Assembly (NCBI RefSeq): GCF_002854065.1
Contig: NZ_CP024147.1
DNA length: 64,000 nt
From: Escherichia coli
GTDB lineage: Bacteria > Pseudomonadota > Gammaproteobacteria > Enterobacterales > Enterobacteriaceae
Direction: 5' to 3' (one strand)
Position 1 is the first letter of the stretch. Each line of letters opens with the position of its first letter. A program made the position numbers. This document shows, piece by piece, positions 32,101-35,100 of the stretch.

Positions 32101-35100
32101 TGCCGCCAAATCGGAACAACAGTCCCAGGCAGAAGCACGTGCTAACCTTGCACTCGCAGAAGCAGTAAGCGCCCAACAAAACGTTGAAACCACTCGCCAG
32201 ACCGCAGAAGCCGATCGTGCTAAACAAGTTGCCCTAATCGCTGCCGCGCAGGATGCAGAAACCAAAGCGGTTGAACTGACCGTGCGGGCAAAAGCAGAAA
32301 AAGAAGCCGCAGAGATGCAGGCGGCGGCGATCGTTGAGTTAGCTGAAGCTACGCGTAAAAAAGGTCTGGCGGAAGCAGAAGCGCAACGTGCGCTGAACGA
32401 TGCTATCAACGTACTTTCTGATGAACAAACCAGCCTTAAATTCAAACTGGCATTATTGCAGGCGCTGCCTGCGGTAATTGAGAAATCCGTTGAGCCGATG
32501 AAGTCGATCGATGGTATTAAGATCATACAGGTCGATGGACTGAATCGTGGTGGTACTGCGGGTGATGCGAGCGCAGGTAGCGTTAGTGGAGGAAACCTTG
32601 CAGAGCAGGCATTGTCTGCCGCCCTTTCTTACCGCACACAGGCACCGCTGATTGACTCCTTGCTCAATGAAATTGGCGTTTCAGGCGGCTCGCTGGCGGC
32701 ATTGACTTCACCCTTAACCTCAACAACTCCCGTCGCCGAAAACGTAGAATAAATTTTCAGCTATGAACATCCCTGGCACAAAACGCCGGGGATTTTTTAT
32801 ATCTGCGTTCCGCTAAAAACTGCAAATGATCAGGTTGTTGCAACGTTTTGCGCGACCGCTCGGGGAAGGCAAAACTGCCACAGGGAAAGCATTGCGCGGG
32901 ATCCGGCACTCATCAACAATCGGGAAGTCAGCAAGGGGCTGAAACGGGAAAGCCCCTCCCGAAGAAGGGGCCTTGTATAAGGAAAGGGTTATGATGAAGC
33001 TCGTCATCATACTGATTGTGTTGTTACTCGTAAGTTTCGCAGCTTATTAACAGCCAATCAGAGGGGGAGAAATCCTCCCTCACCCTTGTTCCTTTACTTT
33101 AGGTTGAAAAAAAATCAGCGTCAAGAAGGTTTCATTAACACATATCCCTGGCCCAAAAAGCCGGGGATTTTTTATATCTGCGTTCCGCTAAAAGGTGCAA
33201 ATGCTCAGGACGTTGCAGCGTTTTGCGTGACCGCTCGGGGAAGGCAAAACTGCTTCAGGGAAAGCGTTGCGCGGGGTCCGGCGCTCATCAACAATCGGGG
33301 AGTCAGCAAGGGGCTGAAACGGGAAAGCCCCTCCCGAGGAAGGGGCCTTATAGAAGGAAAGGGTTATGATGAAGCTCGTCATCATACTGGTTGTGTTGTT
33401 ACTGTTAAGTTTCCCGACTTACTAACAACTCATCAGAGGGGGGAGAAATCCTCCCTTACCCTTGTTCCTTTACTCTAGGTTGAAAAAACAACAGCGTCAA
33501 TAGGCCTGCCATGTACGAAGCGAGATCTGTGAACCGCTTTCCGGTTAGCCTTTTTTATCCTGTTGGATCTTCTTGATAATGTTAGTGGTCGAGCAACCGT
33601 CTTCAAAGTTGAGCACCAACACTTCGCCGCCGTTGGCCCAGACTTCTTTACTCCCGGCGATCTCTTCCGGTTTGTAGTCACCGCCTTTCACCAGCAGGTC
33701 TGGCAGGATCCCGGCGATCAGACGCTGCGGCGTGTCTTCTTCAAACGACACTACCCAGTCGACCGCTTCCAGTGCGCCCAGCACAATCATACGCTGTTCG
33801 AGTGGGTTTACCGGGCGGGAATCCCCTTTCAGCCGTTTGGTGGAGGCATCGCTGTTGACGGCAACAATCAAGCGGTCACCCAGCTTGCGGGCATTTGCCA
33901 GATAAGAGACGTGCCCGGCATGTAGGATATCGAAGACACCGTTGGTCATTACCACTTTTTCACCACGTTTACGCGCTGCCGCTACAGCCAGCTTCAGTTC
34001 CTCTTCGGTCATCACGCCAAAGCCGGTATCTGCGCGTCCACGTACAGCGTTTTCCAGCTCGATCGGCGAAACCGTGGAGGTTCCCAGTTTGCCGACCACT
34101 ACGCCTGCCGCCGCATTAGCAAAGAAGCAGGCTTCTTCCAGCGAATTACCCGCTGCCAGCGTTGCCGCCAGGACGCCAATCACCGTGTCGCCCGCACCGG
34201 TAACGTCATACACTTCCTGCGCCTGGGTTGGCATATGCAACGGCGCTTTACCCGGTTGCAGCAGCGACATACCCTGTTCGGAACGGGTCACTAACAGAGC
34301 CGAGAGTTCGTAATCGGCAATCAGTTTCATGCCGCGCTCAACAATCTCTTCTTCGGTCTTACATTTACCGACAACAGCTTCAAATTCCGAGAGATTCGGC
34401 GTTAACAGCGTAGCGCCGCGGTAGCGCTCAAAATCGGTACCTTTTGGATCAATCAGCACCGGAACGCCCGCTTTACGCGCCAGTTGGATCATCTGCTGTA
34501 CGCTTGCCAGCGCACCTTTGGCGTAGTCAGAAAGCACCAGCGCGCCAATCGAACTCAGCGCCTGATTAATCCGCTCGTGCAGCGGCTGCGGATCAACACC
34601 TTCGAAACCTTCTTCAAAATCCAGACGGATCAGCTGTTGGTTGCGGGAAAGTACCCGTAATTTGGTGATGGTCGGATGCGTCGGTACAGAAACGAAGTCG
34701 CATTTGACGTTGACGTCGGCCAGAGATTTACTCAGCGCGCGCGCTGCATCGTCAATGCCCGTCAACCCGACCAGACGTGCATTAGCACCGAGAGAAGCGA
34801 TATTCATCGCCACGTTAGCCGCGCCGCCCGGACGTTCTTCGATGGTATTCACTTTAACCACGGGCACCGGCGCTTCCGGCGAGATACGACTGGTGGGGCC
34901 GTACCAGTAACGATCCAGCATCACATCACCAACCACCATCACTCCTGCACGTTCAAACTCTGGCAGCGTTACTTTCATTCCTGTCTCCTGAGAGATTCAA
35001 AATTTGCGCGCGATAATACCATACTTCATTCTTCCACCAGCCACTTCTGCCAGCTTGCCCGCACCAGTTCACGCTCTGCGGTGAAGCAATCCTCCGACAC

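What the first reader, a model, noticed from the sequence alone, without database searches (positions are those of the whole stretch)
32761..33500. Tandem ibsD/sibD and ibsE/sibE type I toxin-antitoxin loci missed by the ORF track
Two nearly identical repeats of about 370 bp each carry a 19-codon hydrophobic ORF (MMKLVIILIVLLLVSFAAY and MMKLVIILVVLLLLSFPTY) and, on the opposite strand, a strong sigma70-like promoter (TTGACG-17-TAAAGT or TAGAGT) for the antisense Sib RNA. The track instead shows 65-aa minus-strand ORFs (32813..33010, 33188..33385), which are probably translations of the sRNA region.
Basis: partly seen in the sequence, partly recalled or inferred. Interest (0 to 1): 0.45.

Follow-up and report, generated by a model that had tools for sequence, protein, structure and literature searches.

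The report
Known ibsD/sibD, ibsE/sibE toxin-antitoxin pair
This stretch of an E. coli chromosome holds two tandem copies of the well-studied Ibs/Sib system, in which a 19-residue membrane toxin gene is silenced by an antisense small RNA; it is real but ordinary and already described.

Summary
The window is E. coli, and 32769-33500 is the yqiK-hldE intergenic region. It holds two ~356-bp units (period 375 bp, 93% identical).

Each unit has:
- a full-length Rfam SIB_RNA hit on the minus strand (143.5 and 141 bits; gathering score 56);
- opposite it, a 19-codon ORF whose peptide is identical to K-12 IbsD or IbsE.

Both Sib promoters (TTGACG-17-TAAAGT and TTGACG-17-TAGAGT) and both Sib terminators are present. 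Transcript ends transferred from K-12 place SibD at 32946-33089(-), SibE at 33321-33465(-), and the ibsD and ibsE starts at 32928 and 33303.

The 65-aa minus-strand ORFs are not genes:
- they are frameshifted or truncated in K-12 and other strains;
- pN/pS in their frame (0.75) matches the other frames;
- across 62 enterobacterial loci their length ranges from 10 to 100 aa, with 8% identity beyond residue 27.

Only their first ~21 codons lie inside the sRNA.

The one mildly unusual point is that this strain's sibD is a recombinant minority allele (65 of 5,426 genomes). It carries K-12 SibE's sequence in the TRD2 recognition element.

Verdict: already known, low interest.

The parts
32769..33124 (.). 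Repeat unit 1 (the ibsD/sibD module plus the upstream segment shared only with unit 2)
   Evidence: Pairwise alignment of the two units, 93% identity, period 375 bp. 97% identical to the K-12 intergenic region.
33144..33500 (.). Repeat unit 2 (the ibsE/sibE module)
32991..33050 (+). ibsD CDS: 19 codons plus stop, MMKLVIILIVLLLVSFAAY. The RBS AAGGAAAGGG lies at 32979-32988.
   Evidence: Translation is identical to K-12 IbsD b4664. PGAP annotates it as an 'Ibs family toxin' (WP_001387081.1) in an identical record. The 18-19-codon ORF is conserved in 63 of 66 enterobacterial loci.
33366..33425 (+). ibsE CDS: 19 codons plus stop, MMKLVIILVVLLLLSFPTY
   Evidence: Translation is identical to K-12 IbsE b4666. 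PGAP names it ibsE (WP_010723221.1).
32946..33089 (-). SibD antitoxin sRNA (~144 nt), fully complementary to ibsD mRNA
   Evidence: Rfam RF00113 hit at 32976-33124, 143.5 bits. The Rfam model includes the promoter and omits the terminator. Ends were transferred from the K-12 sibD annotation and from the SibD primers of Han et al. 2010. MFE -53.4 kcal/mol, z = -4.6.
33321..33465 (-). SibE antitoxin sRNA (~144 nt)
   Evidence: Rfam RF00113 hit at 33351-33500, 141 bits. K-12 sibE b4611 was mapped through alignment A2. The core is 100% identical to K-12. MFE -51.8 kcal/mol, z = -3.6.
33096..33124 (-). sibD promoter: TTGACG-17-TAAAGT, with the transcription start 7 nt downstream at 33089
   Evidence: Promoter scan, 9 of 12 matches. 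The -35 GTCAA is invariant in all five K-12 copies.
33472..33500 (-). sibE promoter: TTGACG-17-TAGAGT, with the transcription start at 33465
32946..32974 (-). SibD intrinsic terminator (AAGGCCCCUUCUUCGGGAGGGGCUUUCC)
   Evidence: An 11-bp stem in the MFE and centroid folds. Han et al. call it the 'P7 transcription terminator stem'.
33321..33349 (-). SibE intrinsic terminator
32892..32928 (+). ibsD promoter candidate (TTGCGC-17-AACAAT, 7 of 12) and transcription start (T at 32928). The mRNA is ~160 nt with a 63-nt 5' UTR.
   Evidence: The +1 was read from the T7-ibsD primer (TCAGCAGGGGGCTG) and the 18-nt 5' overhang in Han et al. 2010. The hexamers are my own reading of the sequence and fall below the scan threshold.
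33267..33303 (+). ibsE promoter candidate (TTGCGC-17-AACAAT) and inferred transcription start (T at 33303)
   Evidence: Inferred by homology with unit 1. Not mapped experimentally in the paper I read.
32769..32799 (+). Terminator-like hairpin plus T-run after yqiK, at the start of unit 1
   Evidence: Terminator scan: 9-bp stem, 6 G-C pairs.
33144..33174 (+). Duplicate of that hairpin at the start of unit 2. It would stop read-through from ibsD.
   Evidence: The hairpin is shared only by units D and E, not by A, B or C.
32813..33010 (-). Spurious 65-aa ORF, not a gene
   Evidence: Truncated to 27 aa in K-12 by a 1-bp indel. pN/pS of 0.75 equals the other frames. No cross-species conservation. 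No family hit.
33188..33385 (-). Spurious 65-aa ORF, not a gene
   Evidence: Frameshifted in K-12 to 59 aa with an unrelated C-terminal half. Other evidence as for the first ORF.

Best explanation
These are the chromosomal type I toxin-antitoxin modules ibsD/sibD and ibsE/sibE of E. coli, in tandem between yqiK and hldE.

In each unit a sigma-70 promoter close to consensus drives a ~144-nt Sib RNA on the minus strand, ending at an intrinsic terminator. A weak promoter on the plus strand drives a ~160-nt ibs mRNA. That mRNA starts 18 nt beyond the Sib 3' end and encodes a 19-residue hydrophobic peptide.

Because the two RNAs are transcribed from opposite strands of the same DNA, Sib is perfectly complementary to its own ibs mRNA. 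Pairing starts at two recognition elements: TRD1, opposite the 3' part of the ibs ORF, and TRD2, opposite the ribosome-binding region. It then spreads, blocking translation and producing an RNase III substrate. These two elements are the variable parts of the family, so each Sib represses only its cognate ibs. If Ibs escapes repression it is toxic, by membrane damage.

Shown here: sequence identity, anatomy, RNA-family membership, synteny, and conservation of the short ORF. Taken from published K-12 work: transcript ends, TRD1/TRD2, RNase III cleavage and toxicity. Inferred: that the same holds in this strain.
For: - RNA family: Rfam SIB_RNA matches are full length (model positions 1-147) at 143.5 and 141 bits against a gathering score of 56.
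- Peptides: identical to K-12 IbsD and IbsE.
- Synteny and annotation: K-12 annotates sibD, ibsD, sibE and ibsE at the homologous positions between yqiK and hldE. PGAP annotates both Ibs toxins in a 100% identical record. The locus is present in 5,416 of 5,426 complete E. coli genomes.
- Promoters and terminators: Sib promoters found, terminator stems.
- RNA folding: both Sib RNAs and the ibsD mRNA fold better than shuffles, with z = -4.6, -3.6 and -5.2.
- Short ORF conservation: in 66 Sib-context loci from other Enterobacteriaceae the Ibs-frame ORF is 19 codons in 57 and 18 in 6. Positions M1, M2, I6, L8, L12 and S15 are invariant.
- Literature: Han et al. 2010 (PMC2943612) mapped the ibsC and ibsD transcription starts, the 18-nt overhang, TRD1/TRD2 and RNase III cleavage, and repressed ibsD expression with SibC mutants carrying SibD's TRD1 or TRD2. 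Fozo et al. 2010 (PMC2887945) state that overproduction of these toxins is lethal and repressed by the antisense sRNA, and that ibs-sib is duplicated within one intergenic region.
Against: - Nothing contradicts the assignment.
- No expression or toxicity data exist for this particular strain.
- The K-12 record still calls IbsD a 'putative' toxic peptide.
- The ibs promoter is weak (7 of 12 matches) and fell below the scan threshold.
- The ibs 3' end was never mapped. Han et al. inferred it from transcript length.
- This strain's sibD differs from K-12 by one G in the 5' hairpin and by three bases in TRD2. The changes are mirrored in ibsD, because the two genes share the same DNA.
- The physiological role of chromosomal Ibs/Sib modules remains unknown.
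Confidence: 0.97

Rival explanations
1. The 65-aa minus-strand ORFs (32813-33010 and 33188-33385) are real protein-coding genes, and the short plus-strand ORFs are incidental.
For: The ORF is open at 65 aa in 13 of 23 sampled E. coli units and in one unit of E. albertii and of another Escherichia species. GenBank submissions carry it as 'hypothetical protein' in E. coli and Shigella, in clusters of 8 and 37 members.
Against: - Integrity: in the 23 sampled units it is frameshifted to a 59-aa product with an unrelated C-terminal half in 5, truncated to 25-27 aa in 3, and has lost its stop in 2. This includes both K-12 units.
- Selection: pN/pS is 0.75 in its frame against 0.71-0.80 in four of the other five frames.
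- Cross-species: its length ranges from 10 to 100 aa (median 40). Identity to the window's ORF is 62% over residues 1-27, which lie antisense to the ibs RBS and Sib terminator, but 8% beyond that.
- Sequence context: there is no Shine-Dalgarno before the ATG, the ATG lies in the stem of a Sib hairpin, and the ORF crosses the Sib terminator.
- Databases: no NCBIfam hit, and RefSeq PGAP does not call it in any of the 13 records inspected.
Confidence: 0.01
2. One or both units are decaying, non-functional duplicates: a repeat relic whose toxin is no longer expressed or no longer toxic.
For: - Copy number at this locus varies. ST131 and other strains carry a single unit, so the second copy is dispensable.
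- K-12 labels IbsD 'putative'.
- The ibs promoter is weak.
Against: - Both ORFs, RBSs, Sib promoters and terminators are intact.
- The sib/ibs core is almost 100% identical to K-12, while the adjacent spacer has diverged by about 10%. This argues for purifying selection on the core.
- Han et al. treated ibsD expression as something Sib RNAs must repress and built a deletion strain lacking ibsD/sibD.
- Broken Ibs ORFs are rare, 3 of 66 across species.
Confidence: 0.04
3. The ~125-bp segment between the plus-strand hairpin and the ibs promoter (32800-32890 and its copy), which D and E share but A, B and C lack, has a function of its own. It could be a regulator-binding region for ibs or a further small transcript.
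For: The segment is retained in both units. A TTTGCG-N-G motif about 80 nt upstream of the ibs start is invariant in the alignment of all five K-12 copies and both window copies.
Against: - It is the most variable part of the unit. The divergence from K-12 is concentrated there, and it carries indels.
- It is absent from units A, B and C.
- Simple co-duplication of the yqiK terminator and spacer along with the module explains its presence.
- The 8-mer rests on only three independent lineages in a gapped alignment.
- No Rfam hit falls there.
Confidence: 0.05

Closest known systems
ibsD/sibD and ibsE/sibE of E. coli K-12 MG1655 (b4664/b4447 and b4666/b4611)
   Same: - Same flanking genes (yqiK, hldE), same tandem arrangement and same 375-bp period.
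- Identical Ibs peptides.
- The sibE core is 100% identical.
- The sibD/ibsD sequence from the RBS to the Sib -35 is identical except for one G.
   Different: - The intergenic region as a whole is 97% identical.
- The segment over the ibs translation-initiation region (Sib TRD2) is swapped. The window's SibD reads CCUUAUAC, as in K-12 SibE. The window's SibE reads CCUUCUAU, close to K-12 SibD's CCUUCUGU.
- The spacer upstream of ibsD differs at many positions and by 1-bp indels. Those indels are why the 65-aa ORFs are open here but not in K-12.
- This sibD allele is found at >=99% identity in 65 of 5,426 genomes, against 1,961 for the K-12 allele.
ibsA/sibA, ibsB/sibB and ibsC/sibC (the other K-12 family members)
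   Same: Same module from the ibs transcription start to the Sib -35. This covers the Sib terminator, RBS, the MM(K/R)-hydrophobic-(A/T)Y ORF, the AUGAUGA...UCAUCAU hairpin and the GTCAA -35.
   Different: They sit at different loci (yegL-mdtA and fau-serA). They lack the ~190-bp upstream segment with the plus-strand hairpin that D and E share. They also differ in the TRD1 and TRD2 regions.
Other tandemly duplicated chromosomal type I toxin-antitoxin loci (ldr/rdl, zorO/orzO)
   Same: A small hydrophobic toxin, an antisense sRNA antitoxin, and tandem duplication within one intergenic region (Fozo et al. 2010).
   Different: The toxin families are unrelated. Sib overlaps the whole toxin ORF, whereas Rdl and OrzO pair with the 5' UTR (this last point is from my own knowledge of those systems and was not tested here).

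Membership tests
Sib RNA (Rfam RF00113) | Match to the family covariance model at or above the gathering score | tested here: met
   143.5 and 141 bits against a gathering score of 56. Model positions 1-147 of 147, E = 1e-29 and 4e-29.
Sib RNA (Rfam RF00113) | Own sigma-70 promoter and intrinsic terminator giving a ~140-nt transcript | tested here: met
   Promoters at 33124-33096 and 33500-33472. 11-bp terminator stems. Lengths are 144 nt using ends transferred from K-12. The presence of the transcript itself was not testable.
Ibs toxin family | An 18-19-residue hydrophobic ORF with the family pattern, preceded by an RBS | tested here: met
   Identical to K-12 IbsD and IbsE. RBS is AAGGAAAGGG. 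Fits the consensus of 48 distinct 19-aa homologues. Family HMM scans could not be used because 19 aa is below the tools' minimum length, and padded versions gave no hit.
Ibs/Sib type I toxin-antitoxin module | The toxin ORF lies entirely within, and antisense to, the antitoxin RNA gene | tested here: met
   ibsD 32991-33050 lies inside SibD 32946-33089. ibsE 33366-33425 lies inside SibE 33321-33465.
Ibs/Sib type I toxin-antitoxin module | Orthologous genomic position (yqiK-hldE) for the D and E copies | tested here: met
Ibs/Sib type I toxin-antitoxin module | The peptide is toxic when overproduced, and the cognate Sib represses it | not testable with these tools
   Reported for the K-12 genes with the same peptide sequences (Han et al. 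2010; Fozo et al. 2010 introduction). The primary paper, Fozo et al. 2008, is not held in the library.
Protein-coding gene (the 65-aa minus-strand ORFs) | Reading frame preserved among relatives and frame-specific purifying selection | tested here: not met
   Frameshifts, truncations and stop loss in 10 of 23 E. coli units. pN/pS of 0.75 equals the control frames. Length 10-100 aa and 8% identity beyond residue 27 across species.

The most novel reading that the evidence does not exclude
In this minority lineage, recombination between the tandem units has exchanged the TRD2 specificity element between SibD and SibE while leaving TRD1 and the toxin ORFs in place. If TRD2 alone can mediate repression in trans, as Han et al. 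showed for engineered SibC, the cross-talk map of the five-member family would be rewired. For example, SibD rather than SibE would share the segment that Han et al. noted is common to SibA and SibE, and so could cover ibsA. That would make the two recognition domains naturally exchangeable modules.
Probability: 0.15. Interest if true: 0.3.

Novelty: already known. Interest (0 to 1): 0.05.

Why it matters
It matters little as a discovery. The Ibs/Sib family has been known since 2008, these two copies are annotated in K-12 and by PGAP, and the literature already says that ORF callers tend to miss Ibs genes.

The practical value is for annotation. A tool-free reading of raw sequence correctly recovered two 19-codon genes and their antisense RNAs. 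The competing 65-aa ORFs, which sit in GenBank as 'hypothetical proteins' of E. coli and Shigella, are shown here to be artefacts.

The swap in a recognition element and the variation in copy number are small population-level footnotes on how tandem toxin-antitoxin modules evolve.

Tried and rejected
- Tandem Repeats Finder returned nothing on 32400-33900, probably because there are under two copies of a 375-bp period. A direct pairwise alignment was used instead.
- The NCBIfam scan of padded Ibs peptides and of both 65-aa ORFs gave only meaningless hits at E = 0.14 for the peptides and none for the ORFs. It says nothing about Ibs because the peptides are too short. Pfam's profile_search needs at least 30 aa and was not tried.
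- Fozo et al. 2008, the primary paper, could not be read because it is not held. Han et al. 2010 and Fozo et al. 2010 were used instead.
- A first attempt at diversity by sub-region was distorted by one unit with an IS150 insertion and by mixing paralogues. I use it only qualitatively and rely on the window-versus-K-12 alignment.
- One plus-strand frame had a lower pN/pS of 0.49. It corresponds to a 38-aa ORF (32826-32942) that stops after 9 codons in unit 2 and in K-12, so I treat the value as noise.
- I considered whether the upstream segment specific to D and E is a separate element and rejected it as the main reading (see rival explanations).
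Full report
**What is there.** The window is E. coli. The 861 bases around the finding match 5,415 of 5,426 complete E. coli genomes over at least 80% of their length, and two records match at 100%. The finding lies between yqiK (31091-32752, +), a flotillin-family gene, and hldE (33545-34978, -). Reading the sequence and aligning the two halves confirms two units, 32769-33124 and 33144-33500. They are 93% identical with a 375-376 bp period. Tandem Repeats Finder missed them, probably because there are fewer than two full periods.

**Identity.** A gathering-threshold Rfam scan of the whole window gives two full-length SIB_RNA (RF00113) matches on the minus strand. They lie at 32976-33124 (143.5 bits) and 33351-33500 (141 bits), against a gathering score of 56. 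The plus-strand 19-codon ORFs at 32991-33050 and 33366-33425 translate to MMKLVIILIVLLLVSFAAY and MMKLVIILVVLLLLSFPTY. These are identical to K-12 IbsD and IbsE. K-12 MG1655 annotates sibD, ibsD, sibE and ibsE at the homologous positions. PGAP annotates both toxins in a record identical to the window.

**Anatomy.** The Rfam model's ends are not the transcript ends. The model begins at the -35 hexamer and stops before the terminator. I took transcript ends from the K-12 annotation through alignment A2 and from the primer sequences in Han et al. 2010 (PMC2943612):

| Feature | Window position |
|---|---|
| SibD +1 (the A of ACAAGGGUG) | 33089 |
| SibD 3' end (...GGGGCUUUCCC) | 32946 |
| ibsD +1 (the T of TCAGCA) | 32928 |

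This reproduces the 18-nt 5' overhang of ibs mRNA over the Sib 3' end that the paper reports. By homology, SibE is 33321-33465 and ibsE starts at 33303.

- **Sib promoters.** They are TTGACG-17-TAAAGT and TTGACG-17-TAGAGT, with transcription starting 7 nt downstream.
- **Sib terminators.** Each Sib ends in an 11-bp G+C-rich stem.
- **ibs promoter.** My reading is TTGCGC-17-AACAAT (32892-32920). It matches only 7 of 12 positions and was below the scan threshold.
- **Plus-strand hairpin.** Each unit opens with a plus-strand terminator-like hairpin (32769-32799 and 33144-33174). The first would terminate yqiK, and the second would stop read-through from ibsD.
- **RNA folding.** All three RNAs fold better than shuffled controls: SibD z = -4.6, SibE z = -3.6, ibsD mRNA z = -5.2. 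In the ibsD fold the Shine-Dalgarno AAGGGU pairs with ACCCUU near the 3' end, and the start codons sit in the AUGAUGA/UCAUCAU hairpin. This is a prediction only.

**How far the family homology extends.** I aligned the window's two units with all five K-12 units. Homology across the whole family runs only from about the ibs start and Sib terminator to the Sib -35. The ~190 bp upstream, including the plus-strand hairpin, is shared only by D and E. The simplest reading is that a 375-bp piece was duplicated: the yqiK terminator, a spacer and one module. That spacer is the part that differs most from K-12, and it carries 1-bp indels. The segment from the RBS to the Sib -35 is almost invariant.

**The 65-aa minus-strand ORFs.** They exist and start at ATGs inside Sib (33010 and 33385). 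About 21 codons later they run through the Sib terminator. They then continue antisense to the ibs promoter and spacer. Several tests show they are not genes:

- In K-12 one is cut to 27 aa and the other is frameshifted to 59 aa with an unrelated C-terminal half.
- Among 23 units from 13 E. coli genomes, 13 are 65 aa, 5 are the frameshifted 59-aa form, 3 are 25-27 aa, and 2 have lost the stop.
- Among the indel-free units, and restricted to the part outside Sib, pN/pS in the ORF's frame is 0.75. Four of the other five frames give 0.71-0.80. The odd one, at 0.49, belongs to a 38-aa ORF that is not conserved in unit 2 or in K-12.
- A pattern scan of one genome per species gave 66 Sib-context loci in Escherichia, Citrobacter, Salmonella, Kluyvera, Pseudocitrobacter, Phytobacter, Hafnia and others. 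The Ibs-frame ORF is 19 codons in 57 of them, 18 in 6 and broken in 3, with M1, M2, I6, L8, L12 and S15 invariant.
- In the same loci the antisense ORF ranges from 10 to 100 aa. Its identity to the window's ORF is 62% over residues 1-27, which lie antisense to the constrained RBS and terminator, and 8% beyond that.
- There is no Shine-Dalgarno sequence before its ATG and no NCBIfam hit. RefSeq PGAP never calls it in the 13 records inspected.
- It does sit in GenBank as 'hypothetical protein' of E. coli and Shigella, in clusters of 8 and 37 members. This is a recurrent annotation artefact.

**Mechanism.** This part comes from published K-12 work, not from tests here. Han et al. 2010 report the following:

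- Sib RNAs repress only their cognate ibs mRNAs.
- Recognition uses two independent domains. TRD1 is Sib +46 to +68 and targets the ibs ORF. TRD2 is Sib +99 to +115 and targets the translation-initiation region.
- Pairing spreads from these two sites.
- RNase III cleaves the duplex.
- Swapping SibC's TRD1 or TRD2 for SibD's redirects it to ibsD.

Fozo et al. 2010 (PMC2887945) state three further points:

- Overproduction of these toxins kills cells, and the antisense sRNA represses this.
- ibs-sib is duplicated within one intergenic region.

Toxicity through membrane damage is from my own knowledge of Fozo et al. 2008, which I could not open.

**What is slightly unusual.** The sibD/ibsD allele in this window is a mosaic. 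Its ORF and TRD1 are K-12 D. In the TRD2 segment it reads CCUUAUAC, as in K-12 SibE. The window's SibE reads CCUUCUAU, close to K-12 SibD's CCUUCUGU, and Han et al. give UCCUUCUGU as SibD's TRD2. This allele occurs at >=99% identity in 65 of 5,426 genomes, against 1,961 for the K-12 allele. Within each unit, cognate pairing is unaffected because both RNAs come from the same DNA. Only cross-talk between units could change.

Copy number also varies. ST131 and other strains have one unit at this locus, and one strain has three at mdtA-yegL. Fozo et al. 2010 already describe lineage-specific duplications in the family.

**Verdict.** This is a correct identification of a known locus. Novelty is 'already known' and interest is low.

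Noticed in passing
window 32970-32981 and 33345-33356; L002 (K-12) 2245-2257 and 2621-2632: The ibs translation-initiation segment (Sib TRD2) is swapped between units D and E relative to K-12. The window's SibD reads ...CCUUAUAC, as in K-12 SibE, and the window's SibE reads ...CCUUCUAU, near K-12 SibD's CUGU. The ORF and TRD1 parts are unchanged. The combination of an IbsD ORF with the 'ATAC' segment was seen in only 2 of 23 sampled units. The window's allele is in 65 of 5,426 genomes, against 1,961 for the K-12 allele.
   Followed up: partly
L012, L014, L015 (single unit at yqiK-hldE); L016 1226-1942 (three units at mdtA-yegL): The number of ibs/sib units per locus is polymorphic within E. 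coli. ST131 and other strains carry one unit where this window has two, encoding either an IbsE-like or an IbsD-like peptide. Strain EC0900 carries three units at the sibA/B locus.
   Followed up: partly
L011 1-530 (E. coli NCTC9087): An IS150 transposase gene lies directly upstream of ibsD where the end of yqiK and the upstream half of unit 1 should be. The ibsD ORF is intact.
   Followed up: no
window 33381-33408 (-): A third promoter-like site, TTAACA-16-TATGAT (10 of 12, the best score in the region), lies inside sibE. It would start a ~50-nt RNA covering TRD2 and the terminator. The equivalent site in sibD (TTACGA) is weaker. It is a consensus match only.
   Followed up: no
window 32976-33124 and 33351-33500: The Rfam SIB_RNA model's boundaries do not match the transcript. 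Model position 1 is the -35 hexamer (UUGAC), so ~35 nt of promoter are modelled as RNA, and the model stops ~30 nt before the 3' end, omitting the terminator.
   Followed up: yes
window 32847-32854 and 33222-33229; alignment A3 columns 126-133: A TTTGCG-N-G motif about 80 nt upstream of the ibs transcription start is invariant in the alignment of all five K-12 units and both window units, although the surrounding sequence of A, B and C is unrelated to D and E. It could be an alignment accident, since there are only three independent lineages.
   Followed up: no
window 32813-33010 and 33188-33385 (-): The spurious 65-aa ORFs are deposited in GenBank and UniRef as 'hypothetical protein' or 'uncharacterized protein' of E. 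coli and Shigella. The exact sequences were seen on 60 and 84 contigs.
   Followed up: yes
L002 2123-2326 (K-12): In K-12 the extra G upstream of ibsD puts a TTG-initiated upstream frame in phase with ibsD. This gives a 67-aa ORF ending in the IbsD sequence. Its start lies upstream of the mapped ibsD transcription start, so it is probably meaningless.
   Followed up: no
window 32929-33089 (+): In the predicted fold of ibsD mRNA the Shine-Dalgarno AAGGGU pairs with ACCCUU at the 3' end, and the AUGAUGA start region pairs with UCAUCAU (codons 5-7). This suggests intrinsic translational occlusion, as in other type I toxin mRNAs.
   Followed up: no
window 29362-29510 (-): An FMN riboswitch (RF00050, 120.9 bits), presumably the ribB leader.
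   Followed up: no
window 41420-41490 (-): A naRNA4 (RF02564, 79.3 bits) match. This family corresponds to REP-type extragenic repeats.
   Followed up: no
window 53824-64000: A tRNA with anticodon CAT (53824-53899) is followed by a CP4-44-like island, annotated in similar records as Ag43/Cah autotransporter, GTPase-family, DUF4942 and DUF932 proteins. An IS102 RNA (RF00124) hit lies at 61928-62164 upstream of the Ag43-like gene. Only 2 records match this 10-kb stretch at >=99% identity, so the island is variable.
   Followed up: partly
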